Positions 42,853 to 58,479 of a DNA stretch of 64,000 nucleotides are shown here, piece after piece. Position 1 is the first letter of the stretch, and each line of letters opens with the position of its first letter. The translations under genes and the position numbers were made by a program. Under the pieces are notes generated by a model that saw nothing but the letters and a program-made list of their open reading frames with translations, was not told where the DNA came from and made no database searches. Origin of the DNA: an uncultured bacterium (GTDB lineage Bacteria > Actinomycetota > Acidimicrobiia > Spongiisociales > UBA5794); contig CAVZRA010000013.1 of the NCBI GenBank assembly GCA_963777645.1, positions 86,514 through 150,513 of the forward strand. The letters run 5' to 3'.

Positions 42853-43803
42853 TCCTTGGCCAAACCGACATCGTCTCGATCGCATTTTGGGCAACCGTGC
42901 TCGCCGCAGGAGTACGTCTTGCTGTCTCCGTCGGAATGGCTGCACTGGGTGAGATGATCAACGAAAGAGCCGGTGTACTCAACCTGGGTCTCGAGGGCGT
43001 CATGCTCATCGCTGGCTTCGCCGGGTTCGCTGCATCTTTCGAATCCGGCTCGCCATGGCTCGGTCTTGGAGTTGGATTCATCGTCGGGGGCCTGGTCGGT
43101 GCGCTATTCGCCTTCTTGGTCGTGGTACTTAGAGCCGACCAGGTCGTGACGGGCCTCGCTCTCACTCTTTTCGGTATCGCATTCACTGCTTTCCTGAATC
43201 GCGAGATCTATGGCGGCGGCAGTACCCCGCCACGGGCTCCTAAGCCGGGCGTGTGGGAGATTCCGATCTTGAAGAACATCCCGATTCTTGGCGAAGGATT
43301 GTTTAGCCAATCCCAGGTGGCGTATCTCGCAATCCTGATCACCGTGCTCCTTGTCGTGTACTTGCGGCGTAGCTACTGGACAATCGTGCTGGACGCGGTC
43401 GGAGAAGAGCCCCGAGCCGCTGACGCGGCCGGTCATTCCGTAGTAGTCGTTCGGTTTATCGCCACCGTTGCCGGCTCTTGTTTGGCTGGTCTTGCCGGAG
43501 CCCTTCTCATCGTCGGCCAACTCGGATTCTTCAACACCAACATCACCGCAGGGCGTGGCTTCATCGCCGTGGCCCTGGTTATCTTCGGTCGATGGCGACC
43601 GGGAGGCATCGCGCTCGGAGCGCTCCTGTTTGGCGCCCTCGACGCTCTTGCAGTTCCGCTTCCAAACTCTCGACACCGCTATCCCGTTCGAATTCTTTAT
43701 CGCGCTGCCCTTCGCCGTCACACTCATCGCCGTGGCGTTCGGCGCCAAGAGAGCCCGCGAACCATCTGCCCTCACAATCCCGTTCTTCCGAGAAACGGAA
43801 TAG
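42849..43803 (+). pseudogene. ABC transporter permease with one frameshift near 43650
   Basis: Frame 0 is good through 'GALLFGALDAL'. The true C-terminus 'QFRFQTLDTAIPFEFFIALPFAVTLIAVAF...' continues in frame +1 and ends at 43803. Compare the intact paralog, 'FLDGLQLSLQAVGFDLPYQLLLALPF'. Confidence 0.75.
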
Positions 43804-43867
43804 ACGGCCAATGCGTGGCAAGTTCGATACAAGACACGGAATCGACCAACATGACGGAGGGTACACA

Positions 43868-44621
43868 ATGGGAAAGCTAGAGGGACGGGTCGCGATAGTC
43901 ACCGGCGGTGCCGGTGTGATTGGTACCGCATATTGCAAAGGGTTCGCAGCAGAAGGTGCCGCCGTCGTGGTAGCAGATATGGCAGACGCGATCCGGGTTG
44001 GTTGCCGAGCTGAAGGCGGCCGGGCATCAGGCTCTGGCAGTGAAAGTCGATATCTCGGATGCCGCTTCGACTGAGGCAATGGCTAAGACGGTACTTGATG
44101 AATTTGGCAGGATTGATGATCTTGGTCGAACAACGCTGCCTTCTTCAAGTCCGTCACCCGTGGACCGTTCGAAGAAATCTCGGTCGAAGAGTGGGACCTG
44201 ACGATGGCGGTCAACGTGCGGGGCCCCTGGCTGTGCTGCAAGAGCAGTGCTACCGGCGATGAAGAAACAGGGTCACGGCCGAATAATCAACATCTCATCC
44301 AACGTCGTGTGGAAAGGAGTCCCCGGGTTCCTGCACTACACAACCTCGAAATCAGCCCTGCTCGGCTTCACCCGGGCCATGGCTCGCGAAGTCGGCGAGT
44401 TTGGTATCACCGTCAACAATGTGGCACCTGATTTCATCCCGGATGACGCGTTGCGCGCCCACCAGCCGGGCAACGAGGATGCCGTAAATGCACAACGTGC
44501 CATCAAGCGCACCTCCGTGCCCGAGGACATGGTGGGAACCGTTCTCTACCTGTCGAGCGATGACGCTTCGTTCGTCACGGGTCAGGCGATCTTGGTCAAC
44601 GGCGGCGCCTTCATGTATTGA
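43868..44621 (+). pseudogene. SDR-family oxidoreductase (FabG-like) interrupted by 3-4 frameshifts
   Basis: 'GRVAIVTGGAGVIG' (frame 2), 'VAELKAAGHQALAVKVDISD' (frame 0), 'NNAAFF...MAVNVRGPW' (frame 2) and 'GRIINISS...YTTSKSAL' (frame 0). Extra bases lie near 43997, 44124/44128 and 44246. Confidence 0.75.
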
Positions 44622-44690: not shown

Positions 44691-45771
44691 ATGACTGAGG
44701 TCGCGCAAGGCATCGACGTAGACGTCTCGGAATTGGTAAACGAGCTGGACGAAGCGGGCGAAGAGCGGCTGTACCAGTCGCTCCACTACTTCTGGCATCC
44801 GGTGATGTTCGCCGAAGACCTCGGCGAACATCCGCAGCGAGTCGTCCTACTCGACAAGACCGTGGCCATTGCCCGCCTTCAAGGGAAGGTCCATGCGTTC
44901 TACGACCTTTGTATGCACCGCGGTGCCGCAATCTCACTCGGCGAGGTGGATGACGGATGTATTCGCTGCCCCTATCACGGATGGAAATACGATGCGACCG
45001 GGCAGTGCGTCGAGATCCCATCTCGCCCACAACTCTCACGTCTCACCCACGCCAAACTGACGCCATACCTCTGCGAAGAGCGCTATGGCATCATCTGGGT
45101 CAGCCTCACTGACAAGCCATACTTCGACATCCCCGAGCTGCATCAATGGGACGATCCGCAATTCCGATTCATCCGCGGTCCCGTCACAGAGTGGCGATGC
45201 TCCTCACCGCGGCGTCTGGAGAATTACGTCGACTTCGGGCACTTCTCGTGGGTGCACGACGGTTTTCTCGGGTCACGAGAGAATCCCGAGGTGACCGACC
45301 ACGACGTTTCGATGGAAGACGGCGAAATGCGCGTGACGCCAAACCGTCCACGAACCAGTGACCGGCAAGTTCAAGGCCCACCTGGGGGCCGCCGGCGAGA
45401 TGATCACCGCCCTGAACGTCTATCGAGTGTTCCTCCCCCACGCGGTGAACCTCGACCGCCACTTCGATGGCGGCGGACGCTACATCCTGTTCATGGCGCC
45501 GTCGCCGGTCGGCAGGAAACAGACCAGGAGTTTCTGGTACATCGGCCGCAACTATGCGACCGAGCCAGAACATGACGCTGAGTTCCTGGACTTCGAGCTC
45601 CAGATCCTCGAGCAAGACAAACCGGTAGTGGAGTCGCAGCGGCCCGAGCAGCTGCCGTTGGACCTGACCAAGGAGCTACATATCAAGGTAGCCGACAAGA
45701 TCTCCCTGAACTATCGACGAGCTCTGATCCGGATCGCCGACGAACTGAGCCCGGCAACAGAAGACGACTAA
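44691..45771 (+). pseudogene. Rieske [2Fe-2S] non-heme-iron oxygenase alpha subunit (about 360 aa, VanA/NdmA-size class) with one frameshift near 45339
   Basis: Rieske motif 'CMHRG...CPYHGWKY'. Frame 0 is good through 'GEMRVT', and the C-terminal catalytic part continues in frame +1 ('QTVHEPVTGKFKAH...YILFMAPSPV'). Confidence 0.75.
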
Positions 45772-45808: not shown

Positions 45809-47242
45809 ATGAGCTTGGCTTCTGACTTGGGCACATGTGACCTGCTACTCGACGGTGGGGTCGTCATCACTATCGATGACGCCAAGCGCGTTATCGACAA
45901 CGGTGGGGTCGCGATCAAGGGTGACCGAATCGTTGCGGTTGGCGACTCGGCGGAGTTGGCCGCATATCGCCACGACGCGACTCGGATAGTCGACTGTAGC
46001 AACAGAGTCATCATGCCCGGCCTCACCGACGGCCACACCCACCTGTTCCAAACGTTGGGACGAGGTATGGGTGACGGGCTCAGTCTTGTACCCTGGCTTC
46101 GTCGATTCATGTTCCCCTACGCGAAAACCATCTCTGGTGACGTAGCGGCGGCAGGCGCTCGGCTCGGCGCCCTCCAGGCGGCCCTATCCGGTACGACCGT
46201 CGTAGTCGACAATCACTATGGCCCAACAGACACATCCACCACACTCGCAGTCGCCGCAGGGATTGAGAGCGTCGGCATTCGTGGTGCGGTTGCCCGCGGC
46301 ATCTTCGGAAAACCCAACCGCGGTGGTGAGATCATGGGAGTTGCACCAGAGCTCTTCCCCTGGACAAACGACGAAGAGCTCGCCATTACCAAGGAATGTA
46401 TCGATGCCAGACCGGCGGGGTCCAAGGTGGAGATCTGGCCGGGTCCCGAGAATGTCGTGTACGTAACGCCAGAACTGATCGCCGGATCAGCCGAGCTAGC
46501 CGAGAATGCGGGTGTTCGCTGGCACATGCACTGCTCCGAATCATCGTCCGAGATCGAATTCTTCGAGTCGATATTCGGTATACGGCCGGTTGCCTGGCTG
46601 GCTCGAGAAGGCCTACTGACCCATAGGACCACACTGGCCCACGCCATCTGGCTCGATGACGACGAGGTGTCGGCACTCGGCGAGAACCATTCCACCACAG
46701 TCCACAATCCCGTCTCGAACCAATATCTCGCCTCGGGAGTGATGCGTCTCCAGCCGCTGCAGAGCGCCGGGGCGAATGTTGCGCTCGGCACCGACGGCAT
46801 CGCCGTTACCGGACAGGACATGTTCGAGGCGATGAAGGCAGGGACGTTGCTCCATCGAGTCCACCACCTGGATCCAGAAGCAACAACCGTAGAGCAGTTC
46901 ATTGAGATCGCGGCAGCAGGCGGCTCGGCGATGACCGGCATCGATGCCGGAACGCTGACGCCAGGTCGTCTTGCCGACATCGTCGTTGTCGATGTCGACA
47001 AGGTTCGTCACACCCCATGGAACCGCCCGGTAGCATCCATCGTCCACTGCGGAAGAGCGGCGGACGTCGACATGACAATCGTGGGCGGCGAGATCATTGT
47101 CGAAAACGGCAAGTCAACTCAGGTCGATGAGGACGAAGTCCGTGCGACCGCCACGGAAGCGGCAGAGCGACTCATCGCCGATGCCGATCTTTCGGGACTT
47201 ACCCGGGGCTGGTTCTCGCCGAACGCCCATCACCAGCAGTAG
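45809..47242 (+). CDS. TRZ/ATZ-family amidohydrolase (paralog of 28174-29586)
   Basis: 'MPGLTDGHTHLFQ' and 'WHMHCSE'. AAGGAG RBS before ATG 45809. Confidence 0.85.
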   Translation: MSLASDLGTCDLLLDGGVVITIDDAKRVIDNGGVAIKGDRIVAVGDSAELAAYRHDATRIVDCSNRVIMPGLTDGHTHLFQTLGRGMGDGLSLVPWLRRFMFPYAKTISGDVAAAGARLGALQAALSGTTVVVDNHYGPTDTSTTLAVAAGIESVGIRGAVARGIFGKPNRGGEIMGVAPELFPWTNDEELAITKECIDARPAGSKVEIWPGPENVVYVTPELIAGSAELAENAGVRWHMHCSESSSEIEFFESIFGIRPVAWLAREGLLTHRTTLAHAIWLDDDEVSALGENHSTTVHNPVSNQYLASGVMRLQPLQSAGANVALGTDGIAVTGQDMFEAMKAGTLLHRVHHLDPEATTVEQFIEIAAAGGSAMTGIDAGTLTPGRLADIVVVDVDKVRHTPWNRPVASIVHCGRAADVDMTIVGGEIIVENGKSTQVDEDEVRATATEAAERLIADADLSGLTRGWFSPNAHHQQ

Positions 47243-47258: not shown

Positions 47259-48071
47259 ATGACCACCAAGACGCCGAGTGTTAGGCACCTCTACACAACC
47301 GGAGCCTCCGAGAATCGTTTGCATTACATCGATTTTGGTGGAACCGGCCGGCCGCTGATCGCCATGCATGGCGTTACCGGAAACGCTTGGAATTGGTACA
47401 AGGTGGCAGAGGGACTGACCGATCGCCGACACGTCTATGCGCTCGATTTCCGGGGCTACGGTGAAAGCCAATGGTCATCCGAGGGCGCCTACACCACGTC
47501 CGACCATGTTGCTGATCTGGGCGCTGTACTCGACTCGCTTGGGGCGCCCGTCGTAGACCTCATCGGATCGTCATGGGGTGCGCTAGTAGCAATCCAATAC
47601 GCCGCAGAGAGCCCCGATCGTGTTGGCCAGCTAGTCGTGGTCGACGTTGAGGCATCCTTCGCCCAGGGAGAAACCGATCTCTTCCCACGCCCGACGAGCT
47701 ATGCCGGCATCAACGAGGTAGCTGCCGGAGAAGCCCAACGCAACCCGAATGCCACCCCCGAAATGGTGGCAATGATGACTGCGACTTGCTACACCCCCGG
47801 AGCTGAAGGCACCCTCGTGCCAAAGCACGATCCGTACTTCTTCAAGCGATGGCCGTTTCGCTCAGACGACCACTGGGAGCTGCTCGAGACGATAAAGGCA
47901 CCAACTCTGCTACTCCACGCAGCCAGCAGCTTTGTCAACGGTGCAACCATGGAGAAGATGGCAGACCGAATCCCCAACGCACTCCTCGTTGAGATTGCCG
48001 AGAGTGGCCACGCCGTACCCGTGGAGAACCCTGCTGGAATCGTCGCCGCCGCAGCCTCGTTCCTCGAATAG
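47259..48071 (+). CDS. Alpha/beta-fold hydrolase
   Basis: 'LIAMHGVTGNAWNW' and the nucleophile elbow 'GSSWG'. ATG 47259 follows GGAGGGAAAACAGCG. Confidence 0.8.
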   Translation: MTTKTPSVRHLYTTGASENRLHYIDFGGTGRPLIAMHGVTGNAWNWYKVAEGLTDRRHVYALDFRGYGESQWSSEGAYTTSDHVADLGAVLDSLGAPVVDLIGSSWGALVAIQYAAESPDRVGQLVVVDVEASFAQGETDLFPRPTSYAGINEVAAGEAQRNPNATPEMVAMMTATCYTPGAEGTLVPKHDPYFFKRWPFRSDDHWELLETIKAPTLLLHAASSFVNGATMEKMADRIPNALLVEIAESGHAVPVENPAGIVAAAASFLE

Positions 48072-48196: not shown

Positions 48197-48895
48197 ATGG
48201 GTAGCCCAAATGAGTACGAGAGCCTCAGGCAGGCGATCCTGGAGGGGGACGAGCAAGCAGCGGCTGCAATCGGCCACGAAGTGGCCGCCGCCGCTGAGAA
48301 CCCTCTCGGTGCCGTAGAAGTCGCCTCCAATGTGATCCGAGAAGTTGGCGACAAGTTCGGAACAGGAGAGCTATTCCTTCCCGAAATGGTGCTGGCCGCT
48401 GAGGCAATGCAGGCTTTCATGGCCGAAGTCTCCGCTCGACTCGAAGCAGAGGCCGGTGAGGGCGGCAGCCGGAAACGCGGCAAAGTGGTAATTGGGACCG
48501 TACAGGGCGACATCCATAGTATTGGAAAGAACATCGTTGCAACCATGCTGGGCGCGGCCGGCTATGAGGTTGTCGACCTCGGCGTCAATGTGGGCCCCAT
48601 GGAAGCGATCCAGGCCGCCGAGAAAAGCGGCGCATCTTTCATCGGTCTATCGGCTCTAATGACGACGTCCATGCCGTATCAAAAGGAAGTCGTTGACCTC
48701 CTCAACGAGCTCAACCAGCGAGACGATTTCTTCGTCCTCATCGGCGGTGGACCGGTCACACGAGAGTACGCCGACGACATAAACGCCAACGGTTGGGCAG
48801 CGGATGCAGCGGCAGCCGTGCAAGTGTGCGATCGGCTCGCTTCGGGCGATACCACGCCTTCCGACACCAATCTCGTCTACGTAGTGGCGGAGTGA
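48197..48895 (+). CDS. Cobalamin-binding corrinoid protein, cassette 2
   Basis: 'GDIHSIGKN' (DxHxxG), 'SALMTTS' and 'VLIGGGPV'. AAGGAG RBS. Confidence 0.85.
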   Translation: MGSPNEYESLRQAILEGDEQAAAAIGHEVAAAAENPLGAVEVASNVIREVGDKFGTGELFLPEMVLAAEAMQAFMAEVSARLEAEAGEGGSRKRGKVVIGTVQGDIHSIGKNIVATMLGAAGYEVVDLGVNVGPMEAIQAAEKSGASFIGLSALMTTSMPYQKEVVDLLNELNQRDDFFVLIGGGPVTREYADDINANGWAADAAAAVQVCDRLASGDTTPSDTNLVYVVAE

Positions 48896-48898
48896 ACA

Positions 48899-50281
48899 AT
48901 GAAACTTGAACGTATTTTGGACGTGCTGGACCGCGCTCACAACGGGCCGGTCTACAAGGAACGCGAATTCAACCTGAACGTGGTCGCGAGCACCATCGCC
49001 GCCAAGGTCAAGAAGTTTGGCCTCGCCGGGACTGTCGATACTGAGAACCCCATCGGGAGCAACGACGAGCTCGCCGACCGTTTCTATCAGGCGGGTTTCG
49101 AAGCTGCAGTGGAGATCGGTCTCCTCTGCGGCGACACGAATCGGGCGATTCGCTTCAACGCAGAAGAACTCCAGGGACTAGTCGATGAGGCACCCAGTGA
49201 GTTCTGGCTTGGCGAAGGCGACCAGAGAGTCCATTTTCAGCATCGCGGGCTGAACGACCCCACGACGCCGGTATGGACGGTACCGCTCAGCATTGTGGTG
49301 TCCGAGGACATCTTTGTCGATATGGTCCACGGCCTGGCCGCGATCGATGTCGTCGATTGCCTCGAAGGGCCTTCCCTGGAAACTGTCTACGGACGGCCGC
49401 TTCGTTCCGGATCACCGTACGAACATCTTGCGGGCCGGTATCAGGCCGATCTGATGTACGAGGGGATCAAGAGAGCAGGGCGAGTCGGAATGCCGATGGA
49501 TGCCATCGGCTCATCGACAACGCACTACGGGCTCCTGGGAGGCTATGGCGTTGAGGGTGGATACCGCCCCAAGTACGACCTTGTGACCATCCTGTCCATC
49601 GGCGATTTCTGGACCTCTTACGAGTCGCTCTTCAAGCTGACCCAGGTGTATGTTGCCGGTGGCGAACACATCTCAGCGTCATCCTGGGTGATGCTCGGCG
49701 GCTATGCCGGCGGCCCGGAAGGCACCGCGGTCGCCTCGGTCGCCTACACACTTCTCATGTACGCAGTGTTCCAGGGATCACGAGGCGGCGTGCCTCCGTT
49801 TGATATCTCCTATATGGGTAACTCTGGCAGACGGGCGCAATGGGCATTGAGTGTTTCCAACCAGGCGATCACACGTAACACCAACAACGTATATCACTCG
49901 ATCGCCAACCAGGTGGCGGGTCCCGGCACCGAAATGCTGCTCTACGAGAGCTTGGTCGGAATGACCACCATGGCTGTCACCGGTGTCACCAATGTCGTCG
50001 GGACTCGCTCCGCAGGCGGCCGGCTCACCGACTACCTGACACCTCTCGAGCACCAGTTCGCCGGCGAGGTCTTCAAGGCCGCAGCCGGGCTGAGCCGCGA
50101 GCAAGGTAATGAGATCGCCAGGAAGTTCATCCCCAAGTACGAAGATCAACTCGTCGCCAAGCCAGACGGGCGCTCCTTCCAGGAGCTATACGACATCGAC
50201 ACGCTGACACCGATTCCCGAGTGGCAAGCCATGTACGACAAGGTGAAGCAAGAAGCAATCGACGCAGGTCTACCGCTCTAG
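48899..50281 (+). CDS. MtmB-family methyltransferase without pyrrolysine, copy 2 (divergent paralog)
   Basis: 460 aa with no in-frame TAG. It is collinear with copy 1 and with archaeal MtmB ('ADRFYQAGFEAAVEIGLLCGDTNR', 'AGRVGMPMD', 'AGPGTEMLLYES', 'LTPIPEWQAMYDKVKQEAIDAGLPL'). Confidence 0.8.
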   Translation: MKLERILDVLDRAHNGPVYKEREFNLNVVASTIAAKVKKFGLAGTVDTENPIGSNDELADRFYQAGFEAAVEIGLLCGDTNRAIRFNAEELQGLVDEAPSEFWLGEGDQRVHFQHRGLNDPTTPVWTVPLSIVVSEDIFVDMVHGLAAIDVVDCLEGPSLETVYGRPLRSGSPYEHLAGRYQADLMYEGIKRAGRVGMPMDAIGSSTTHYGLLGGYGVEGGYRPKYDLVTILSIGDFWTSYESLFKLTQVYVAGGEHISASSWVMLGGYAGGPEGTAVASVAYTLLMYAVFQGSRGGVPPFDISYMGNSGRRAQWALSVSNQAITRNTNNVYHSIANQVAGPGTEMLLYESLVGMTTMAVTGVTNVVGTRSAGGRLTDYLTPLEHQFAGEVFKAAAGLSREQGNEIARKFIPKYEDQLVAKPDGRSFQELYDIDTLTPIPEWQAMYDKVKQEAIDAGLPL

Positions 50282-50353
50282 GAGTTCCTATCCTCGGACC
50301 TATCTCGCTCAAAGCACGACTACGGTGCGTGAACGCCATTCAGAGGGCTTCCT

Positions 50354-52424
50354 ATGGATGAAACGACACGCACCGAGTCATTTACCCTGGTCTTTCAACC
50401 TTCCGGCGCTCGAGGAAAGGTCGAGGCTGGGACCAGTATTAGACGTGCGGCAACCGACCTCGGAGTGGAGATCGAGAGCATCTGCGCCGACGCTGCCACC
50501 TGCGGCAAGTGCCGGGTCTTGATCGAAGACGGCCACTTTGGCAGCATTACCTCGTCACCGGACCATGCTTCCGAGATGCGATCCACCGAGGAGTTGTGGA
50601 TCACCAAACGGGCCAAGACCTGGGTCAAGATGGGTCTCGACCCCGACCGCCTGCGGCTGTCGTGCCAGGCCAAAGTCCAAGGGGACATGGTGGTGTTTGT
50701 CCCTGAGTCAAGCCGGGGCAACCGACAGATCATTCGTAAGGCCGCAACCGACCGCCACATCGAAATCCACCCCGCTGTTCGGCGCTACTACCTGGAGCTA
50801 GACCCGGCAACACTCGAAGACCCTCTTGGAGATCTCGAACGGGTCTCCCGAAGTCTGGTGGCAGCCATGACAAGGATCCACGGTAAGCCGGGCTGGGTCG
50901 AACCCGATCCCAACGACATCTGGTTCGATTTCCCCGTCATCCGGACGATGGGTGCCGTCATTCGCGAGGCCGATTGGAAGGTGTCGCTAACGGTATGGCA
51001 GAACCGCGAGGTTATCGACATTCGGCCTGGATACAGCGAGGACCTATACGGGATCGCCGTTGATGTCGGTAGCACCGCGATTGCCATCTACATCTGCAAT
51101 CTCATCACGGGTGAGGTGGTTGACACCGATTCGATGATGAATCCACAGACCGCGTTTGGCGACGACATCATGTCCCGCATGACCTATGAGAATGAGCACG
51201 AAGACGGTCTCGCCATCCTTCATGATGCCGTATTGTCGGGGCTCAGCAAGCTGATCGCTAGAGCTCTACGAGCCAACCGCATCAAGGCAATTGATGTTCA
51301 TGAATTGACTGTGGTCGGCAACACAACCATGCAGCATCTGCTGCTCGGAATCTCCACCAAGTACCTCAGCACAGTGCCGTTTGTCCCGACCTCGCATCGT
51401 GCCTTCGACATCAAGGCTCGCGATCTGCCGATCGTGGCCAACCCCAACGCCAACATCCACGTTCTACCGATCGCGGCCAGCTTTGTCGGCGCCGATGCGA
51501 TGGCAGTTGCCATCGCAGAAGAGCCGCACAAGCAAGACGAGATCCTGCTCATTATCGACATTGGGACCAACGCTGAGCTCATCGCCGGAAACCGCGAGCG
51601 ACTGGTGTGTACATCAACACCTACCGGGCCGGCGTTCGAGGGTGCTCACATAGAATATGGCATGCGAGCGGCAGACGGCGCTCTGGAGCGGATCGAGATC
51701 GATCCGGAGACTTTCGAACCGCGTTACCGGGTTATCGGGACCAAGGGTTGGGGACCGGACCAGCTCGAGAGTGACGAACCAACCGATCGACGGCGGCCCG
51801 GTCAAAGGCATTTGTGGCTCCGCAATCATCGACGGCGTCGCCGAGATGTTCCGGACAGGGATCATCACACCACGCGGCCATTTCAACAAGGACCTGGACT
51901 CGGAGCGGATCCGCCAGGGTGAGCTGGGCTGGGAATACGTGGTGGCGTGGGCTGACGAGACCTCGATCGGCAGGGATATCCCGATCACACTGGACGATGT
52001 GCGTCAGATCCAACTAGCCAAGGCCGCCCTGTATACGGCTTCGCACATACTGCTCAGAGAATTAGGCGTCACGACCCCGGACAAAATCATTCTGGCCGGC
52101 GCCTTTGGCTCCCATATCGACAAGACCCGGGCAATGATCCTCGGTATGATCCCCAACTGCCCGCTTGATCGAGTGTTCTCAGTCGGAAACGCCGCAGGCG
52201 ATGGTGCTCGAATCGCCCTTCTCAACCGATACAAGCGACTCGAGGCTCAGGAGATAGCTCGAACCATCACCCGCGTTGAGCTGCCCGTCGACCCGGACTT
52301 TCAAAGCGAATACATGCAGGCGCTCAACTTCCCCCACATGGTGCACGAGTTCACCTCGATCGCCGATCTCATCCCTGCCTACAAGGCCGACCCGATGGCA
52401 GCAAAGCTCAGCAACTCTCGCTAA
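50354..52424 (+). pseudogene. RamA/RACE-type corrinoid reductive activase (N-terminal 2Fe-2S ferredoxin + ASKHA ATPase) with one frameshift near 51780
   Basis: N-terminal 'CGKCRV...LSCQA'. The ASKHA part is 'GIAVDVGSTAIA' and 'IDIGTNAEL'. Frame 2 is good to about 'GWGPDQLES', then frame 0 continues with 'PIDGGPVKGICGSAIIDGVAEMF...FGSHID...GNAAGDGA'. Confidence 0.75.
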
Positions 52425-52496
52425 GCGATTTCAAATACGCTTTCGCCATCCGTACGCGGCAACTATTCAAGGGCACCCTAGAACGACGGTGGTGAG

Positions 52497-53093
52497 CTAA
52501 CGAATAAAAACCGCGCAGTGCCATTTCCCGTGTTGTGCCACCCGTGTGGCCGACCCGACGGGATAGGTGTAGGCGTCACCTGCCTCGAGCTCAACCGTGT
52601 CGTAACCGCTCAGAGCGACGGAAATCGATCCATCCAGGACGTAGATCATCTCTTCGCCCTCGTGGGCAAGTTCGCAACCCGATTCGGCGCCCTCTTCTGC
52701 CGTAATGAGATTCGTCTCGACGTGATGGTGGGCCCCCTCGACGAGGAAGTAAGCACACGCTCCATGCCCCAGTTGGTAACGGCGGGTGGCCGCACCCCGT
52801 ACCAGGCTCACCTCAGTCGAGACGGCGGGCTGGAGCAGGACTTGCGCCGATGTTCCGAGTGCGGCGGCAACCTGATGCAACGCCAGGAGACTCGGCATCG
52901 CCTTGCCATTCTCCAACTGGCTGAGAAATGGCTGTGACAAGCCACACATGTCGGCTAATTGTTGGAGCGTGAGACCTCGAGCCTTGCGATGCTCTCGGAG
53001 CGCCTGACCGAGTGACACCGCCAACTCATCACCGTCCACCGACACAGCGGCAGAGGCATCATTACCAGATTGTGGGTCTTGTTGTGTGATCAT
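52497..53093 (-). CDS. XRE-family HTH regulator with C-terminal cupin domain
   Basis: 'LGQALREHRKARGLTLQQLADMCGLSQPFLSQLENGK' is the HTH, and the cupin region is 'HEGEEMIYVLDGSI'. ATG 53093 avoids an Arg-rich extension and an overlap with the upstream gene. Confidence 0.8.
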   Translation of the reverse strand: MITQQDPQSGNDASAAVSVDGDELAVSLGQALREHRKARGLTLQQLADMCGLSQPFLSQLENGKAMPSLLALHQVAAALGTSAQVLLQPAVSTEVSLVRGAATRRYQLGHGACAYFLVEGAHHHVETNLITAEEGAESGCELAHEGEEMIYVLDGSISVALSGYDTVELEAGDAYTYPVGSATRVAQHGKWHCAVFIR

Positions 53094-53202: not shown

Positions 53203-55519
53203 CTACTCCCGTGCCGCAATAGCCGTCGCCAGCCGCTGAGGCGTGATCGGAATCTGAGTTATCGCAATGCCAGCGGCGTCTGCAACTGCGTTCGCAATCG
53301 CGGGACCTGGACCGAGGATGGGATGTTCCCCGATGCCTTTGGCGCCGAATGGACCCAACGCATCAGGCACCTCGATCAGGGAGGTCTTTATCCGAGGCAT
53401 GTCGAGGATCGTGGGTAGTCGATAGTCAACGAGATTGGGGTTCAGGATTCGTCCATCCTCGATCATCACCTCTTCCCAAAGGCTACCGCCGAGACCCTGA
53501 GCGATGGCTCCTTCGATCTGGCCTACCAAGGCCATCGGGTTTATAGCCTTGCCGACGTCGTGGGACGCGGTATAGCCAAGGATCGTCACCTGACCGGTCT
53601 GTGGATCGATTTCGACCTCGGCGATGTGGGTCCCGAATCCAAATGTCGGGTAAAGGCCTTCGGCGAACCCACCGCCAATTGGCTCATCGTGGTGACCATA
53701 GGCCGACCATGAGCCAACGCCAATCAGTGGTCCACCAAATCCATAGATCGAGGTTTCTGCTACAGCCTGTAACGTCATCCCGACTTCGGGTTCCGATCGC
53801 TTGTAGGCGCGCCCTCCCGAGACGGTGATGTCACTCTCCCGGCATCCCAACGCTCGAGCCGCACATTCCGCGATCTTGGCATAGAGGTCCTCACTCGCCA
53901 GCCGCACGGCGCTCCCGTTGTCGAAGACGGTTCGGCTTGCAATCGAGCCGAGGTCAAACGCGGTGTGATCGGAATCGGGGGCGGCCACCGAGATTTGATT
54001 CATAGACACTCCGAGCACTTCGGCAGCAATCTGAGATAGAACCGTGTGTGTCCCGGTTCCGATTTCAACGGCAGCCGTCGTGATCGAAATTGTCCCGTCC
54101 TCGGCGAGATGAACATTTGCCGAAGACGACAGCAAGCCGACCGTCTTGACAACATTTGCGATACCGATACCCCGATTGGGACCGAGCTTGCCCTTCTTGT
54201 CCCAGTAGCCAGAATTGTCTAGCGCCTGCTCCATCGTCTCTCTGATATGCACATCATGAAGCGTTGCTCCAGAAATCAATTCGTCCCCGTTAGCCACCAG
54301 GTTCGCCAATCGCAGCTCAGCAGGGTCAATGGCCAACTCCTTAGCCATGGCATCGAGATGGGTCTCGAGCGCAAACACCGCTTGAATCGTGCCATACCCG
54401 CGCATACAGCCGTGGTCGGGGTTGTTGGTATAGACCGCGCGGGTCCTCACCTTCCAGTTGGGAAACCGGTAGACCCCCTCCGATGAACTCAGCGCATGAC
54501 TAGCCGTGCCTATCACGTGGTCGGAGAACCCCCCGGCATCGGCAACGATATCGATATCTCCACCGGTCAACCTACCGTCGCGAGTAGCGCCGAGCTTCAC
54601 CCTGATACTGAACGGAGCTCGGCCGTTGGCCGCAATGAACTCTTCGCTCCGCGTCATCGCCAGCCGAACGGGCAGTCCCGTCTTCAGAGCTAGTAGCGCA
54701 GTCAATGGTTCCAGATTGCTCTTGAGCTTTCCTCCGAAACCTCCTCCGCATTCGAGCGGTACTACTTTGACCTCACCCATCGACATCCCTAGCGCCATCG
54801 CCAATTCCGCATGGCACACGCTCAGTTGCTGGGTAGCAGTCCAAACGGTGAGACGGCCCCGGTGGTCAAAACCCGCTACGCATGCGTGCGGTTCGATGGG
54901 CGCTTGATTGATGGCGCCGGTTCGGTACACACGTTCCAAGACAACGTCAGACTCCGCAAAGGCCTTGTCGACGTCGCCCCGTTCCAACTGGGCTTCCATG
55001 CATACGTTCCCGTACCTGATGTACGGAAAGACCGCTGCATAGTCGGCAAGGTCGGGATGCAACTGGGGAGCGTCGTGCGCCAGTGCGGCATCGGTATCCA
55101 ATATGGGCTCACGGTCCTCGTAGGTAACCGCGATGAGACCGAGAGCCTGCTCTGCGACGCTTTCACTCACTGCAGCAACAGCAGCAACGCGATCGCCGAT
55201 GTACTTGACCTCGCCCTTAGCAAGGATCGTCTTGTCCTTCAGGTAGATCCCGTAGCGGGTATCTGGGGCATCGTCACCGGTGATGACGGCTTTGACGCCG
55301 GGAAGAGCGAGAGCCTTGCTGACGTCGATATCGACAATGCGTGCGTACGGCCTATCGCTGAAGAGGATCTTGGCATGCAACATGCCCGTCAGGTAAAAGT
55401 CGGTGCTGTACTTGGAGGCTCCAGTGACTTTGGCAATGCTGTCGATCTCTGGTCACCGACTTGCCGACGACCTTGTACTCGGGCTTCGATACCTGCTTGT
55501 GTGTTTTCGAGGTGGTCAT
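53203..55519 (-). pseudogene. Xanthine-dehydrogenase-family molybdopterin-binding large subunit with one frameshift near 55447
   Basis: ATG 55519 overlaps the FeS-subunit stop (ATGA) and encodes 'MTTSKTHKQVSKPEYKVVGKSVTR'. Deleting one base at about 55447 joins it to 'IDSIAKVTGASKYSTDFYLTGMLHAKILFS...'. The uninterrupted ORF is 53203-55383. Confidence 0.8.
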
Positions 55520-55989
55520 TGTTCGCCCTCGGCCATCAAGAGTGCCGCCGTGTTGACCGCAGAAATGATCGATCCGTAGCCGGTGCACCGACACAGGTTC
55601 CCGGCGAGACCAGCACGAATCTGATCTTCGGTCGGATGAGCCTCTTCGGCCAGTAGCGCCGCTGACATCATGATCATGCCAGGGGTGCAATAGCCGCATT
55701 GCGCTGCCCCAAAGTCGACGAAGCCCTGCTGGACCGGGTGCAGGCCTGACTCCCCCGCAAGCCCTTCAACCGTCATAATCTCCTTGCCCTGGGCCGTTGC
55801 GGTCAGGACAAGGCAACTGGTTACAGGGCGCCCGTCGAGCAACACTGTGCATGCCCCGCAGTCCCCCGTCGCACATCCCTTCTTGGACCCGGTGAGACCT
55901 AGAGTCTCCCGCAGGGTATCAATGAGCAGCGCGCCGGGCTCTGCTACTACATCTCGGATCTCTCCGTTGACGTGAAGATTGATCTCCAT
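55516..55989 (-). CDS. (2Fe-2S)-binding small subunit of Mo hydroxylase
   Basis: 'CATGDCGACTV', 'CGYCTPG' and 'CRCTGY'. Confidence 0.85.
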   Translation of the reverse strand: MEINLHVNGEIRDVVAEPGALLIDTLRETLGLTGSKKGCATGDCGACTVLLDGRPVTSCLVLTATAQGKEIMTVEGLAGESGLHPVQQGFVDFGAAQCGYCTPGMIMMSAALLAEEAHPTEDQIRAGLAGNLCRCTGYGSIISAVNTAALLMAEGEQ

Positions 55990-55991
55990 GC

Positions 55992-56870
55992 CTACGCCTC
56001 CTTCTGCTTGCCGACGCGCTCACCGAGATCGACAAGCAGGCGGGCCACCAATCGCTCGATCATCTTCTTTCGATAATCTGCGCTGCCACGCACGTCGCTG
56101 ATCGGTGAGATCCCGGCTGCCGCCACCCGAGCGGCTTCCTTCGCAAGAGCCAAGTCCATCTTTGCCGAGCCGTTGATGACTTCCTCTGCCGCTGTCGCCC
56201 GTATTGGTGTTGGGGCCACAGCGCCCAGGCCGATCCGAGCGTGCAGACCTGCTGGTTCTTGCCAAAGCGCCACCGCGACACCAACAATCGCAAGGTCCAT
56301 CGCACGACGTGGGCTCAGCTTCGTGTAGGAAGCCACCGCACCGGGTGCCGGCCATGGCAGCCACAGTGCTTCAAGCATCTCGCCCCGATCGAGAACGGTC
56401 TTGCCAGGCCCTACGAAGAAGTCCTCTAGCAGGACGTTTCTACGACCGGCAGCAGATACGATGTGTACCTCGGCTTTGAGCACCAACAACGGGGCGACCG
56501 TATCCGCCGATGGCGAGGCGTTGCATATGTTGCCCCCGATGGTTGCCATGTTCCGTATCTGCGGGCCGGCAACCACAACCGCCCCCTCGGAAAGCACCGG
56601 GAACCGTTCTGCAATAACATCTGAAGCGAGTATGTCGACCAACCGCACCGCAGCCCCTATCCGCAACCCTTCGGGCTCCACAGCTATCTCACCAAGCTCG
56701 GCGACGCCGGTTATGTCCACCATCGTTATCTCGGACCCCGGCTGATCCCGGTACTTCAGAAGTAGATCGGTGCCGCCGGCTAAAAGGCGGGATTCGGTAT
56801 CACGATCGTCAATGATCGAAAGAAGATCTTCAAGCTGTGCTGGGCAAACGACTTCTCTGATCGAGGCCAT
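55992..56870 (-). CDS. FAD-binding medium subunit of Mo hydroxylase
   Basis: 'LLAGGTDLLLKY' and 'ATIGGNICNASPSAD'. The start is ATG 56870. Confidence 0.85.
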   Translation of the reverse strand: MASIREVVCPAQLEDLLSIIDDRDTESRLLAGGTDLLLKYRDQPGSEITMVDITGVAELGEIAVEPEGLRIGAAVRLVDILASDVIAERFPVLSEGAVVVAGPQIRNMATIGGNICNASPSADTVAPLLVLKAEVHIVSAAGRRNVLLEDFFVGPGKTVLDRGEMLEALWLPWPAPGAVASYTKLSPRRAMDLAIVGVAVALWQEPAGLHARIGLGAVAPTPIRATAAEEVINGSAKMDLALAKEAARVAAAGISPISDVRGSADYRKKMIERLVARLLVDLGERVGKQKEA

Positions 56871-56921
56871 GGGTTGCTCCCGACTTCGTGTCTCGGCTGC
56901 TAGCCGGCAGTCTACCGCGAA

Positions 56922-56938
56922 AATTGATTCCATCAATA
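56922..56938. promoter_or_regulatory. Operator-like site L: AATTGA-TTCCA-TCAATA
   Basis: 11 of 12 matches. It lies 52 nt upstream of the FAD-subunit start. Confidence 0.5.
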
Positions 56939-58426: not shown

Positions 58427-58438
58427 CCATATTCAATA

Positions 58439-58468: not shown

Positions 58469-58479
58469 GGCAATTCTGG

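What the first reader, a model, noticed from the sequence alone, without database searches (positions are those of the whole stretch)
48197..52424. Second, divergent MtmB-like/corrinoid pair with a RamA-type activase
**Seen in sequence.** A second corrinoid protein (GDIHSIGKN) and a 460-aa MtmB-like paralog are separated by 3 nt. A ferredoxin-ASKHA corrinoid activase follows them. Copy 2 is clearly diverged from copy 1. For example, the putative Pyl-equivalent context is GRVGMPMDAI, with Asp where copy 1 has Met by my alignment, and the N-termini differ.

**Inference.** Two paralogs, each with its own corrinoid partner, suggest two different methyl donors handled by one organism. This parallels the MtmB/MtbB/MttB or MtgB/MtcB/MtpB logic.
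Basis: partly seen in the sequence, partly recalled or inferred. Interest (0 to 1): 0.75.

Follow-up and report, generated by a model that had tools for sequence, protein, structure and literature searches.

The report
Second pyrrolysine-free MtmB-like demethylase cassette
An uncultured Acidimicrobiia bacterium carries two anciently diverged vitamin-B12-dependent methyl-removing enzyme pairs from a family with only one characterised pyrrolysine-free member, and both sit among genes for breaking down nitrogen-containing ring compounds, which suggests a testable substrate class.

Summary
Window 48197-52424 encodes a corrinoid protein (DxHxxG), a 460-aa pyrrolysine-free MtmB homolog 3 nt downstream, and a corrinoid reductive activase. 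The activase is RACo/AcsV-type, not RamA-type. Its split into two ORFs comes from a single extra base at 51786 that two independent assemblies lack.

Copy 2 is 40% identical to copy 1 (34416-35802). At the Pyl202-equivalent position copy 2 has Asp and copy 1 has Met.

The two are old paralogs, not recent duplicates:
- Each belongs to its own orthologous clade found in several phyla (Asp/Glu clade versus Ile/Met/Leu clade).
- 50 alignment columns discriminate the clades.
- The corrinoid partners co-evolve with their methyltransferases (22/22 and 15/15).

The pairs share one methyl-THF-forming methyltransferase, MTHFR, FolD, FTHFS and one activase. In relatives they are often adjacent.

Both clades are recurrently linked to Bmp/PnrA-type ABC transporters, TRZ/ATZ/8-oxoguanine-deaminase-like amidohydrolases and three-subunit xanthine-dehydrogenase-family enzymes. 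A sister clade is not.

My best reading is one THF-linked demethylation system with two specificities, probably acting on N-methylated N-heterocycles. The substrate is inferred, not shown. I rate it a new variant of a known kind, of moderate interest.

The parts
48197..48895 (+). Corrinoid protein 2 (CoP2), cognate partner of MtmB-like 2
   Evidence: PF02310 and PF02607. DxHxxG at 105, plus SxL and GG motifs. It scores below the cutoff of every named NCBIfam corrinoid-protein model (best MtgC, 189 against 310). Orthologs always accompany Asp/Glu-clade methyltransferases (22/22).
48899..50281 (+). MtmB-like methyltransferase 2 (non-Pyl, Asp201 at the Pyl202-equivalent position); substrate:corrinoid methyltransferase (MT1)
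   Evidence: PF05369 at 227 bits. PDB MtmB E=5e-43. AF2 pLDDT 95; Foldseek 1L2Q TM 0.93. No in-frame stop codon. Asp/Glu is conserved in the clade.
50354..52424 (+). RACo/AcsV-type ATP-dependent corrinoid reductive activase. It is split in this window by a 1-nt insertion at 51786 and is an intact 689 aa in L001/L002.
   Evidence: Fer2, RACo_linker, Raco_middle and RACo_C_ter domains. NF040756 AcsV 420 bits against TIGR04270 RamA 102 bits. Indel mapping. Cys44/50/53/104 and ASKHA motifs DVGST and DIGTN.
33441..34295 (+). Corrinoid protein 1 (CoP1). This is the ORF as listed; the homologous part starts near 33600.
   Evidence: PF02310 and PF02607. 42% identical to CoP2. DAHDIG motif. Orthologs accompany Ile-clade methyltransferases (15/15).
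34416..35802 (+). MtmB-like methyltransferase 1 (non-Pyl, Met at the Pyl-equivalent position). The N-terminus is disrupted by a window-specific 1-nt insertion near 34448; the listed ORF is 34438-35802.
   Evidence: PF05369 at 269 bits. PDB MtmB E=6e-55. P0121 is 461 aa and 99% identical over the aligned region in the protein search; its N-terminus MKNKPDILEILH is read in another frame here.
35838..36689 (+). Pterin-binding methylcorrinoid:tetrahydrofolate methyltransferase (MT2). It is the only one in the window, so presumably shared by both pairs.
   Evidence: PF00809. NF005719 at 292 bits, above the cutoff of 259. The tblastn search shows a single copy in the window.
36695..37375 (+). Conserved 226-aa protein of unknown function with a C-terminal Cys motif. 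It travels with these cassettes.
   Evidence: 45-50% identical homologs lie next to the MT2, RACo or MTHFR gene in L012, L015, L019, L020, L021, L042 and L082. No Pfam or NCBIfam family matches; there is only a marginal Met_synt_B12 hint at E=0.056.
37867..38955 (+). Methylenetetrahydrofolate reductase
   Evidence: PF02219.
39041..43880 (+). Bmp/PnrA-type ABC transporter 1 (binding protein, ATPase, two permeases)
   Evidence: PF02608, PF00005 and PF02653. It is conserved upstream of cassette 2 in L003 and L005.
43868..44621 (+). SDR oxidoreductase. It is broken here by several window-specific 1-nt insertions and is an intact 249 aa in L001.
44691..45771 (+). Rieske/VanA-like oxygenase. It has a frameshift at 45335 in this window and is an intact 359 aa in L001.
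   Evidence: PF00355 and PF19112.
45809..47242 (+). Amidohydrolase of the TRZ/ATZ, 8-oxoguanine-deaminase and MTA-deaminase group
   Evidence: PF01979. NCBIfam best hits are all below cutoff. PDB best hits are AtzA 4V1X, 3HPA, 4F0R and 7WW2. It is syntenic in L003, L005, L006, L020 and L021.
47259..48071 (+). Alpha/beta-fold hydrolase immediately upstream of CoP2
   Evidence: PF00561. It is conserved upstream of CoP2 in L003-L006.
52481..53093 (-). HTH_3 + cupin transcriptional regulator, convergent with the activase (frameshift at 52563 in this window)
53203..56936 (-). Three-subunit xanthine-dehydrogenase-family molybdenum hydroxylase (large, 2Fe-2S and FAD subunits). The large subunit has a frameshift at 55446 in this window.
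   Evidence: PF02738, PF20256 and PF01315. PDB best hits are 4-hydroxybenzoyl-CoA reductase, quinoline 2-oxidoreductase and nicotinate dehydrogenase.
57296..62127 (+). Bmp/PnrA-type ABC transporter 2
   Evidence: It lies adjacent to cassette 2 in L003, L004 and L019.
18711..19604 (+). FolD (methylene-THF dehydrogenase/cyclohydrolase), downstream C1 oxidation
   Evidence: tblastn with the L012 FolD gives 51% identity.
63241..63999 (-). Formate-THF ligase, cut by the window end
   Evidence: tblastn with the L012 FTHFS gives 61% identity.

Best explanation
**Architecture.** The window encodes one tetrahydrofolate-linked, corrinoid-dependent demethylation system with two substrate-specific front ends.

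**Proposed mechanism.**
1. Each front end is a pyrrolysine-free MtmB-family TIM-barrel methyltransferase (MT1). It takes a methyl group from its substrate and puts it on the Co(I) corrinoid of its own co-evolved corrinoid protein.
2. Both methyl-corrinoid proteins are unloaded by the single pterin-binding methyltransferase (35838-36689) onto THF.
3. Methyl-THF is oxidised through MTHFR, FolD and formate-THF ligase, all encoded in the window.
4. The single RACo-type activase behind copy 2 uses ATP and a low-potential electron to return adventitiously oxidised Co(II) corrinoid to Co(I) for both pairs.

**Relationship of the two copies.** They are ancient paralogs with different pockets: Asp/Glu versus Ile/Met at the position where MtmB carries pyrrolysine. 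They therefore take different methyl donors.

**Likely substrates.** The two clades are repeatedly co-clustered with each other and with Bmp/PnrA-type uptake systems, purine/triazine-type aminohydrolases and xanthine-dehydrogenase-family hydroxylases. The donors are therefore most likely two related N-methylated N-heterocycles, or two methylation states of one. Candidates are methylated purine bases or nucleosides, or N-methyl-pyridinium compounds. Their demethylated ring would then be deaminated and hydroxylated.

**Shown.** Gene content, homology, fold, residue differences, clade conservation, co-evolution and synteny statistics.

**Inferred.** Direction of methyl flow, sharing of MT2 and activase, and above all the substrate class.
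For: - **Family and fold.**
- **Complete component set in the window.** Two MT1, two CoP, one MT2 (NF005719 above cutoff), MTHFR, FolD, FTHFS and one activase. No URO-D-type CoM methyltransferase is present.
- **Functional motifs.** DxHxxG, SxL and GG in both CoPs. [2Fe-2S] cysteines and ASKHA motifs in the activase.
- **Activase intact in the population**.
- **Ancient paralogy.** 40% identity. There are separate orthologous clades, with Asp/Glu in 53 of the first 54 listed copy-2 homologs that were long enough to align, and Ile/Leu/Met/Val in 99 copy-1 homologs.
- **Clade-discriminating columns.** 50 in total. They include 199, 201, 202, 209, 236, 238, 263 and 269 (copy-2 numbering), at or after strands 200-202, 228-232 and 258-266.
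- **CoP co-evolution.** 22/22 and 15/15.
- **Co-clustering of the two clades.** 7 of 14 copy-2-type loci of at least 8 kb also hold a copy-1-type gene. In L021/L020 the two cassettes are contiguous.
- **Context, in 23 loci of at least 8 kb with either clade.** Bmp-ABC 15, amidohydrolase 13, XDH-family 12, and at least one of these in all 23.
- **Contrast with the sister Tyr clade (n=15).** Bmp 0 (p=3e-5), XDH 2 (p=0.02), MttB 9 against 2 (p=0.001).
- **The window itself.** It holds three XDH-family large subunits, three such amidohydrolases and three Bmp binding proteins.
- **Purine nucleoside phosphorylase** is present in L015.
- **Amidohydrolase relatives.** The closest solved structures act on purine or triazine rings.
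- **Mo-enzyme relatives.** Solved relatives include the N-heteroaromatic hydroxylases quinoline 2-oxidoreductase and nicotinate dehydrogenase, though the top hit is 4-hydroxybenzoyl-CoA reductase.
Against: - No biochemical or expression data exist for either clade.
- The context argument is guilt by association. The loci are not phylogenetically independent, so the Fisher p-values are optimistic.
- Amidohydrolase linkage is not specific to these clades (13/23 against 6/15, p=0.51).
- None of the neighbouring enzymes reaches an NCBIfam equivalog cutoff, so their own substrates are unknown. The Mo enzyme's best solved relative is 4-hydroxybenzoyl-CoA reductase, not xanthine dehydrogenase.
- The only characterised non-Pyl MtmB homolog, MtqB, uses tetramethylammonium and choline (PMC13044021). 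A quaternary-amine substrate therefore cannot be excluded.
- An oxygen-sensitive Co(I) system next to a Rieske oxygenase in an apparently aerobic lineage is unusual. Aerobic precedents such as CmuA/CmuB exist (my own knowledge).
Confidence: 0.6

Rival explanations
1. Quaternary-amine demethylases like MtqB. One or both pairs demethylate choline, tetramethylammonium or another osmolyte-type quaternary amine, and the heterocycle-catabolism neighbours are incidental.
For: The only non-Pyl MtmB homolog with a demonstrated function uses tetramethylammonium and choline (PMC13044021). A carboxylate at the Pyl position (Asp201) could pair with any cationic N-methyl donor. The sister Tyr clade is linked to MttB-superfamily genes, which are known quaternary-amine methyltransferases.
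Against: - Both window copies are only 27-29% identical to M. barkeri MtmB. They cluster away from the representatives nearest Pyl-MtmB, where the paper places the MtqB clade (PMC13044021, Fig. 6 legend).
- Transporters next to these clades are Bmp/PnrA-type (15/23), not BCCT or ProU/OpuA-type.
- No MttB gene is in the window.
- All 23 loci carry heterocycle-type neighbours.
Confidence: 0.15
2. O- or S-demethylases. The pairs remove methyl groups from methoxy- or methylthio-substituted aromatic or heterocyclic compounds rather than from nitrogen.
For: Corrinoid MT1 families have repeatedly changed heteroatom specificity (my own knowledge). A VanA-like Rieske oxygenase, whose Pfam C-terminal domain is named for vanillate O-demethylase oxygenase, sits in the Acidimicrobiia version of cassette 2. 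The closest solved relative of the Mo enzyme is 4-hydroxybenzoyl-CoA reductase.
Against: Every characterised member of PF05369 acts on N-methyl groups (MtmB, MtqB). The Rieske gene is confined to the Acidimicrobiia loci (3 of 14 copy-2-type loci and none of the 16 copy-1-type loci). The linked aminohydrolases and Bmp transporters point to N-rich rings.
Confidence: 0.1
3. True monomethylamine methyltransferases, as the databases annotate them. The AtzB/AtzC-like amidohydrolases release methylamine from N-methylamino heterocycles, and the MtmB-like enzymes demethylate it without pyrrolysine.
For: Source annotations read 'monomethylamine:corrinoid methyltransferase'. [quoted passage not shown] The amidohydrolase's solved relatives include hydroxydechloroatrazine ethylaminohydrolase (7WW2), which by its name releases an alkylamine.
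Against: There is no Pyl codon and no tRNA gene of any kind in the window. In MtmB, pyrrolysine is the residue that binds and activates methylamine (PMC9842639). Two clades with chemically opposite residues (Asp versus Ile) at that site are unlikely to share one tiny substrate. NCBIfam has no model that accepts either protein.
Confidence: 0.07
4. The system runs in the biosynthetic direction. Methyl-THF methylates the corrinoid proteins, and the MtmB-like enzymes methylate an acceptor, as in the anaerobic corrinoid-dependent estrogen methylation reported for denitrifying bacteria (abstracts of bioRxiv 714501 and PMC7448270).
For: Methyl transfer between THF and corrinoid is reversible. MTHFR and MT2 are adjacent.
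Against: The cassettes sit in a catabolic island with uptake transporters, deaminases, hydroxylases and the full THF oxidation branch through to formate-THF ligase. No biosynthetic cluster is nearby.
Confidence: 0.05
5. Redundant or decaying copy. Copy 2 is a recent duplicate or a dying cassette, since its activase is frameshifted.
For: In this window the activase and at least five neighbouring genes carry frameshifts.
Against: - All 13 indels against L001, and all 6 against L002, are extra bases in the window. Both independent assemblies encode intact genes.
- Identity between the copies is 40%.
- Copy-2 orthologs are conserved at 60-94% identity across phyla with Asp/Glu retained.
Confidence: 0.03

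Closest known systems
MtmB, monomethylamine:corrinoid methyltransferase of Methanosarcina barkeri (PDB 1L2Q/1NTH/1TV2; Pfam PF05369)
   Same: Same Pfam family over the full length. Same TIM-barrel fold (TM 0.93, rmsd 1.9 A). The gene lies next to a DxHxxG corrinoid protein. The conserved AGRxGM strand carries the key residue.
   Different: - Only 26-29% identical.
- No UAG-encoded pyrrolysine: Asp201 (copy 2) or Met (copy 1) takes its place.
- Bacterial (Acidimicrobiia) rather than methanogen.
- The methyl acceptor pathway is THF (pterin-binding MT2, MTHFR, FolD, FTHFS) rather than coenzyme M.
- The activase is RACo-type rather than RamA.
MtqB/MtqC, tetramethylammonium/choline methyltransferase of Methanococcoides methylutens Q3c (Kashyap et al. 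2026, PMC13044021). It is the only non-Pyl MtmB homolog with a demonstrated function.
   Same: A pyrrolysine-free MtmB homolog working with its own distinct corrinoid protein. It shows that this family can use cationic N-methyl donors other than monomethylamine.
   Different: - MtqB feeds coenzyme M through MtqA/MtbA in a methanogen.
- The paper places its clade next to the Pyl-MtmBs. The window proteins instead sit in a separate bacterial supercluster at 27-29% identity to MtmB.
- The genomic context here is heterocycle catabolism, not methylamine genes.
- The MtqB sequence itself was not available to me, so no direct identity value could be computed.
Non-Pyl MttB-superfamily systems of Desulfitobacterium hafniense and Eubacterium limosum (MtgB, MtcB, MtpB, MtyB and a choline system; PMC8604678, PMC12155760, PMC13080624)
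   Same: Same system logic. Several pyrrolysine-free MT1 paralogs, each specific for one methyl donor, hand the methyl group through a corrinoid protein and a pterin-binding MT2 to THF. A COG3894-type activase keeps the corrinoid reduced.
   Different: The MT1 belongs to a different family (PF06253 MttB). Foldseek detects only remote TIM-barrel similarity (TM about 0.5). Those organisms are strict anaerobes using quaternary amines.
RACo of Carboxydothermus hydrogenoformans / AcsV (NCBIfam NF040756), and RamA (TIGR04270)
   Same: The domain order is N-terminal [2Fe-2S] ferredoxin, then linker, middle domain and ASKHA ATPase. This is the RACo architecture. The role matches RamA: ATP-dependent reductive reactivation of Co(II) corrinoid proteins.
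   Different: It scores below the AcsV equivalog cutoff (420 against 800). It is not next to CODH/ACS genes. It is not RamA-type (102 bits against a cutoff of 500). RamA carries C-terminal 4Fe-4S clusters (my own knowledge).

Membership tests
MtmB superfamily (Pfam PF05369) | Full-length match to the family profile above the gathering score | tested here: met
   Copy 2: 227 bits, residues 6-458 against profile positions 3-450 of 450. Copy 1: 268.6 bits.
MtmB superfamily (Pfam PF05369) | MtmB TIM-barrel fold | tested here: met
   AF2 model with pLDDT 95 and pTM 0.94. Foldseek top hits are 1L2Q, 1TV2 and 1NTH, with TM 0.92-0.94 and rmsd 1.9-2.0 A.
Pyl-dependent monomethylamine methyltransferase (MtmB sensu stricto) | In-frame UAG decoded as pyrrolysine at the position of Pyl202 | tested here: not met
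   Both ORFs are uninterrupted. The aligned residue is Asp201 (copy 2) or Met (copy 1). No tRNA gene is found in the window.
Pyl-dependent monomethylamine methyltransferase (MtmB sensu stricto) | Monomethylamine-dependent methylation of the cognate corrinoid protein | not testable with these tools
   This needs an enzyme assay.
MtqB clade (tetramethylammonium/choline methyltransferase) | Phylogenetic placement in the MtqB clade adjacent to the Pyl-MtmBs | tested here: inconclusive
   The MtqB sequence was not obtainable. The window copies are 27-29% identical to M. barkeri MtmB and cluster apart from the representatives that are 39-42% identical to it. This suggests they are not members.
MtqB clade (tetramethylammonium/choline methyltransferase) | Methyl passed on to coenzyme M by a URO-D-type MtqA/MtbA | tested here: not met
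   No URO-D homolog is in the window at E below 1e-6. The MT2 present is pterin-binding, with NF005719 at 292 bits above the cutoff of 259.
Three-component corrinoid methyltransferase system, THF-linked (MT1 - CoP - MT2 + activase) | Adjacent corrinoid protein with the DxHxxG...SxL...GG base-off/His-on signature | tested here: met
   CoP2 has DIHSIG at 105. CoP1 has DAHDIG at 95. Both have SxL and GG.
Three-component corrinoid methyltransferase system, THF-linked (MT1 - CoP - MT2 + activase) | Methylcorrinoid:THF methyltransferase and an ATP-dependent reductive activase encoded with the MT1/CoP genes | tested here: met
   MT2 is at 35838-36689 and the activase at 50354-52424. The same components recur in relatives.
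Three-component corrinoid methyltransferase system, THF-linked (MT1 - CoP - MT2 + activase) | Reconstituted substrate:THF methyl transfer | not testable with these tools
   This needs purified proteins.
RamA (TIGR04270) | Score above the family cutoff, with RamA architecture | tested here: not met
   102 bits against a cutoff of 500. The N-terminal 2Fe-2S domain is RACo-like.
RACo / AcsV (NF040756; Pfam RACo_linker, Raco_middle, RACo_C_ter) | Fer2 - linker - middle - ASKHA domain order with the four 2Fe-2S cysteines | tested here: met
   All four Pfam domains are above gathering score. Cys44/50/53/104 are present. The AcsV equivalog cutoff is not reached (420 against 800), so it is a RACo-type protein but not the CODH/ACS-associated equivalog.

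The most novel reading that the evidence does not exclude
The Asp/Glu clade (copy 2) and the Ile/Met clade (copy 1) would be the first corrinoid-dependent N-demethylases for methylated nucleobases, nucleosides or other cationic N-methyl heteroaromatics. Candidate substrates are 7-methylguanine, 1-methyladenine, dimethylated guanine or adenine, trigonelline and 1-methylnicotinamide.

The acidic residue that replaces pyrrolysine would hold the positively charged ring while Co(I) removes the methyl group. The freed base would then enter aminohydrolase and xanthine-dehydrogenase-type catabolism.

This would assign a function to a large, so far 'elusive' part of the non-Pyl MtmB family. It would also reveal a THF-conserving route by which Acidimicrobiia and Chloroflexota of sediments and seawater recycle the methylated nucleobase waste of RNA turnover.
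Probability: 0.3. Interest if true: 0.8.

Novelty: new variant of a known kind. Interest (0 to 1): 0.55.

Why it matters
Pyrrolysine-free MtmB homologs have been known for years. The only one with a demonstrated function was reported in 2026 (MtqB, PMC13044021). That paper calls the roles of the rest 'elusive', and databases label them all 'monomethylamine methyltransferase'.

This locus and about 90 related loci show three things:
- At least two conserved bacterial sub-families exist, each with its own co-evolving corrinoid protein and its own residue at the pyrrolysine site.
- They work side by side on a THF pathway.
- They are specifically tied to purine-type uptake, deamination and molybdenum-hydroxylase genes.

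Together these give a concrete, cheap-to-test substrate panel for an orphan enzyme family. They warn against reading bacterial 'mtmB' hits in metagenomes as methylamine use. They also suggest a cobalamin-dependent fate for methylated N-heterocycles in Actinomycetota and Chloroflexota.

Tried and rejected
- **Pseudogene reading of the activase: rejected.** The frameshift is a window-specific extra base. 13 of 13 indels against L001 and 6 of 6 against L002 are insertions in the window.
- **Recent duplication: rejected.**
- **RamA membership: rejected**.
- **Placing MtqB in my tree: failed.** Placement relative to MtqB therefore rests on identity to M. barkeri MtmB only.
- **The single-protein genome-contig scan gave only 7 loci.** An alignment query would have been better. 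The metagenome scan with alignment A1 compensated.
- **NCBIfam naming of neighbours: uninformative.** The amidohydrolase, Mo enzyme, SDR, Rieske protein and hydrolase are all below equivalog cutoffs.
- **Promoter and terminator scan of 43800-53400:** nothing above the shuffled expectation.
- **tRNA scan of the window:** no tRNA genes of any kind, so no sign of a tRNA-Pyl gene.
- **Literature searches found nothing.** They looked for any link between MtmB homologs and Acidimicrobiia, xanthine dehydrogenase, caffeine or trigonelline. The caffeine preprint 10.64898/2026.01.06.697959 attributes N-demethylation to methanogens and does not involve this family.
- **NJ tree with Biopython timed out.** It was replaced by average-linkage clustering on pairwise identity, so no bootstrap-supported phylogeny is offered.

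Full report
**1. What is at the coordinates**

- **Corrinoid protein.** The ORF at 48197-48895 matches the two B12-binding domains of methyltransferase corrinoid proteins. It carries the base-off/His-on signature D105-I-H-S-I-G plus the SxL and GG motifs.
- **Spacing.** Its TGA stop is followed by ACA and then the ATG at 48899.
- **MtmB-like protein.** 48899-50281 is an uninterrupted 460-codon ORF. It matches Pfam PF05369 (MtmB) from end to end (227 bits). It matches the M. barkeri MtmB crystal-structure sequences at E=5e-43.
- **Fold.** An AlphaFold2 model built on a 52-sequence alignment has pLDDT 95 and pTM 0.94. It superposes on 1L2Q, 1TV2 and 1NTH with TM 0.92-0.94 and rmsd 1.9-2.0 A.
- **Pyl-equivalent residue.** In the HMMER alignments, the residue opposite pyrrolysine-202 (X or K in the PDB sequences) is Asp201 in copy 2 (AGRVGMPMDAIG). 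It is Met in copy 1 (AGRPGMGGMGS). In the model Asp201 lies in strand 200-202, matching the barrel strand that anchors Pyl202 in MtmB (PMC9842639).
- **Activase.** It starts 72 nt after copy 2. It has Fer2, RACo_linker, Raco_middle and RACo_C_ter domains.

**2. Two corrections to the observation**

*The activase frameshift is an assembly artefact.*
- In this window the activase is split into two overlapping ORFs (50354-51922 and 51657-52424).
- The exact copy-2 protein also occurs on two independent assemblies (JGI 3300036925 and Logan SRR11829002). There the activase is one 689-aa gene.
- Aligning those contigs to the window (98.4% and 99.65% identity) shows that every indel is an extra base in the window: 13 of 13 and 6 of 6. 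One is an extra A at 51786.
- The same kind of insertion breaks the SDR, the Rieske oxygenase, the HTH-cupin regulator, the Mo-enzyme large subunit and the N-terminus of copy 1.
- These are almost certainly consensus errors of this assembly, not pseudogenes.

*The activase is RACo-type, not RamA-type.*
- It has the N-terminal plant-type [2Fe-2S] motif (Cys44/50/53/104).
- It scores 420 bits on the AcsV/RACo model against 102 bits on the RamA model, whose cutoff is 500.
- The role is the same as RamA's; the architecture differs.

**3. Copy 1 and the rest of the system**

- Copy 1 (CoP 33441/33600-34295; MtmB-like 34416-35802) is 40% identical to copy 2. The corrinoid proteins are 42% identical.
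- Directly behind copy 1 lie three genes:
  - a pterin-binding methyltransferase that passes the NCBIfam cutoff for methyl-THF:corrinoid methyltransferases;
  - a conserved 226-aa protein of unknown function;
  - MTHFR.
- The window also holds FolD and the start of formate-THF ligase.
- It has only one MT2 and one activase. It has no URO-D-type coenzyme M methyltransferase and no MttB homolog.
- The parts therefore add up to one THF-linked system with two MT1/CoP front ends.
- The organism is an uncultured Acidimicrobiia bacterium. Relatives are UBA5794 at 94%, MO_035.B13 at 90% and UBA4744 at 83%.

**4. Are the copies functionally distinct?**

- **Separate clades.** Searches with each copy return separate sets of orthologs at 60-99% identity from Acidimicrobiia, Anaerolineales/Chloroflexota and many unbinned contigs.
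- **Residue at the Pyl column.**
  - The copy-2 clade keeps Asp or Glu there.
  - The next clade, about 55% identical, has Tyr, Phe or His.
  - A clade at about 47% identity has Thr.
  - The copy-1 clade has Ile (mostly), Met, Leu or Val, with Trp and Asn sub-clades.
- **Rarity of an acid.** Among 137 family representatives clustered at 50% identity, an acidic residue at this column occurs in only 7.
- **Discriminating columns.** Fifty alignment columns are at least 85% conserved in each of the two clades but differ between them. Clusters lie at 199-213, 233-243 and 263-272 (copy-2 numbering), at or just after strands 200-202, 228-232 and 258-266 of the model.
- **Partner co-evolution.** All 22 corrinoid genes immediately upstream of Asp/Glu-clade genes are closer to CoP2. 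All 15 upstream of Ile-clade genes are closer to CoP1.
- These results contradict 'recent duplicates with the same pocket'.

**5. The two clades travel together**

- Of 14 copy-2-type loci of at least 8 kb, 7 also contain a copy-1-type gene within the fetched stretch.
- Hits from the two protein searches that share the same longest-contig length suggest that orthologs of both copies lie on one contig in several Acidimicrobiia MAGs.
- In metagenome contig L021, continued by L020, the two cassettes are contiguous. The order is amidohydrolase, CoP1-type, MtmB-like 1-type, the 226-aa protein, MTHFR, amidohydrolase, CoP2-type, MtmB-like 2-type, activase.
- Other relatives carry arrays of three MtmB-like/CoP pairs (L010, L028).
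- This pattern fits related steps of one pathway better than two unrelated substrates.

**6. Genomic context and the substrate hypothesis**

*Conserved order in Acidimicrobiia.* The order is Bmp-type ABC transporter, SDR, Rieske/VanA-like oxygenase, amidohydrolase, alpha/beta hydrolase, CoP2, MtmB-like 2, activase (L003, L005, L006).

*Context in more distant relatives.*
- The Rieske, SDR and hydrolase genes are absent from the loci outside Acidimicrobiia.
- Three partners recur:
  - Bmp/PnrA-family ABC transporters;
  - amidohydrolases of the TRZ/ATZ, 8-oxoguanine-deaminase and MTA-deaminase group;
  - three-subunit xanthine-dehydrogenase-family molybdenum hydroxylases.
- Once, a purine nucleoside phosphorylase is present (L015).

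*Counts.* In 23 loci of at least 8 kb holding either clade:

| Neighbour | Asp/Glu + Ile clades (n=23) | Tyr clade (n=15) | Fisher p |
|---|---|---|---|
| Bmp-ABC | 15 | 0 | 3e-5 |
| XDH-family | 12 | 2 | 0.02 |
| Amidohydrolase | 13 | 6 | 0.51 |
| MttB | 2 | 9 | 0.001 |

Every one of the 23 loci has at least one of Bmp-ABC, XDH-family or amidohydrolase. The loci are not phylogenetically independent, so the p-values are only indicative.

*The window itself* is a roughly 50-kb island. It holds three XDH-family large subunits, three such amidohydrolases and three Bmp binding proteins.

*Neighbour enzymes.*
- The closest solved relatives of the amidohydrolase are AtzA, 8-oxoguanine deaminase, MTA/SAH deaminase and AtzB.
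- Those of the Mo enzyme are 4-hydroxybenzoyl-CoA reductase, quinoline 2-oxidoreductase and nicotinate dehydrogenase.

*Other small clades.* Other small clades of this supercluster, and some Tyr/Phe-clade loci, sit next to dihydropyrimidine-dehydrogenase-like and dihydroorotase/dihydropyrimidinase-like genes (L008, L014, L041, L052, L054, L066).

*Inference.* I infer that the methyl donors are N-methylated N-heterocycles of the nucleobase or pyridinium type. The chemistry fits, though this is my inference and was not tested. Co(I) removes methyl groups readily from positively charged nitrogen, as in quaternary amines or the Pyl-methylammonium adduct. N-methyl-heteroaromatic cations such as 7-methylguanine, 1-methyladenine or trigonelline provide that charge, and an Asp/Glu at the Pyl site could hold it.

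**7. Comparison with what is known**

- Kashyap et al. 2026 (PMC13044021) report the first function for any non-Pyl MtmB homolog: MtqB, using tetramethylammonium and choline in Methanococcoides. They state that the functions of the remaining roughly 1,000 sequences are unknown.
- A non-Pyl MtmB-superfamily protein was the most strongly induced protein in dichloromethane-grown strain DCMF (PMC9768040).
- Metagenome studies simply annotate bacterial hits as mtmB (PMC11264602).
- I found no paper linking the family to Acidimicrobiia, to xanthine-dehydrogenase clusters or to heterocycle demethylation.
- A profile search of 1.84 billion representatives gives 345 family members at E<=1e-30 and 881 at E<=1e-10. 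The family is modest in size but very diverse.
- Both window copies fall in one bacterial supercluster at 27-29% identity to M. barkeri MtmB. They are apart from the representatives closest to it, which is where the paper places MtqB.
- In system logic the closest analogues are the non-Pyl MttB systems of Desulfitobacterium and Eubacterium limosum (PMC8604678, PMC12155760). Their MT1 belongs to a different family.

**8. Verdict**

- The locus is a THF-linked corrinoid demethylation system of a well-known type. Its two MT1/CoP pairs belong to uncharacterised, conserved sub-families of an orphan enzyme family, and the recurrent context suggests a new substrate class.
- I rate it a new variant of a known kind, with interest 0.55.
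- The heterocycle-substrate reading has roughly 0.3 probability in its specific form. It would deserve about 0.8 if proven.

Noticed in passing
window 43647, 43844, 43989, 44117, 44127, 44243, 45335, 51786, 52454, 52476-52477, 52563, 55446, and near 34448: This assembly carries systematic single-base insertions relative to two independent assemblies of the same population. Every indel is an extra base in the window. They frameshift the SDR, the Rieske oxygenase, the activase, the HTH-cupin regulator, the Mo-enzyme large subunit and copy 1 of the MtmB-like gene. They are not in homopolymers, and several create or adjoin GATC-like contexts. Any ORF-based reading of this window should expect artefactual pseudogenes.
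   Followed up: partly
window 36695-37375 (+): A conserved 226-aa protein matches no Pfam or NCBIfam family (only a marginal Met_synt_B12 hint, E=0.056). The homologs in L015 and L012 have a C-terminal CDYC...C motif. Homologs at 45-50% identity sit beside the MT2, MTHFR or activase gene in at least seven related loci. It may be an uncharacterised accessory component of these methyltransferase systems.
   Followed up: partly
window 11328-29661 and 53203-62127: The window is a large N-heterocycle catabolic island. Besides the locus studied, it has two more XDH-family large subunits (15957-18575 and 22130-24415, both minus strand) and two more amidohydrolases (14914-15936 and 28174-29661, minus strand). 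It also has a third Bmp binding protein (26945-28195, minus strand) and a 1215-aa flavoprotein with a dihydropyrimidine-dehydrogenase-type 4Fe-4S domain (11328-14975, minus strand).
   Followed up: partly
L013, L033, L035, L036, L039, L040, L044, L048, L049, L051, L053: The clade closest to copy 2 (about 55% identity; Tyr or Phe at the Pyl column) is usually found beside a second corrinoid protein and an MttB-superfamily gene. It is never found with Bmp transporters. This suggests mixed MtmB-family/MttB-family demethylation operons with yet another substrate.
   Followed up: partly
L008, L014, L041, L052, L054, L066: MtmB homologs with Thr, Gln, Gly, Tyr or Phe at the Pyl column lie next to dihydropyrimidine-dehydrogenase-like and dihydroorotase/dihydropyrimidinase-like genes. 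This may be a pyrimidine-type counterpart of the purine-type context seen for the window's clades.
   Followed up: no
window 29806-33290 (+); L012 18978-20969: A SerA-like 2-hydroxyacid dehydrogenase with an ACT domain, a class-V aminotransferase and a DUF1015 protein sit directly upstream of cassette 1. The first two recur beside the activase in the Chloroflexota-like locus L012. This hints at a link between the methyl-THF output and serine/glycine metabolism.
   Followed up: no
window 3539-7425: An 887-aa subtilase with fn3 and SLH domains (minus strand) and an SLH-domain N-acetylmuramoyl-L-alanine amidase (plus strand) point to an S-layer-anchored cell-surface apparatus in this Acidimicrobiia genome.
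   Followed up: no
L016 1712-3602: The RACo-type activase is also split into two gene calls in an unrelated ENA assembly (ERZ25039527 contig_41603). I did not check whether that split is another assembly error or a genuine two-gene form.
   Followed up: no
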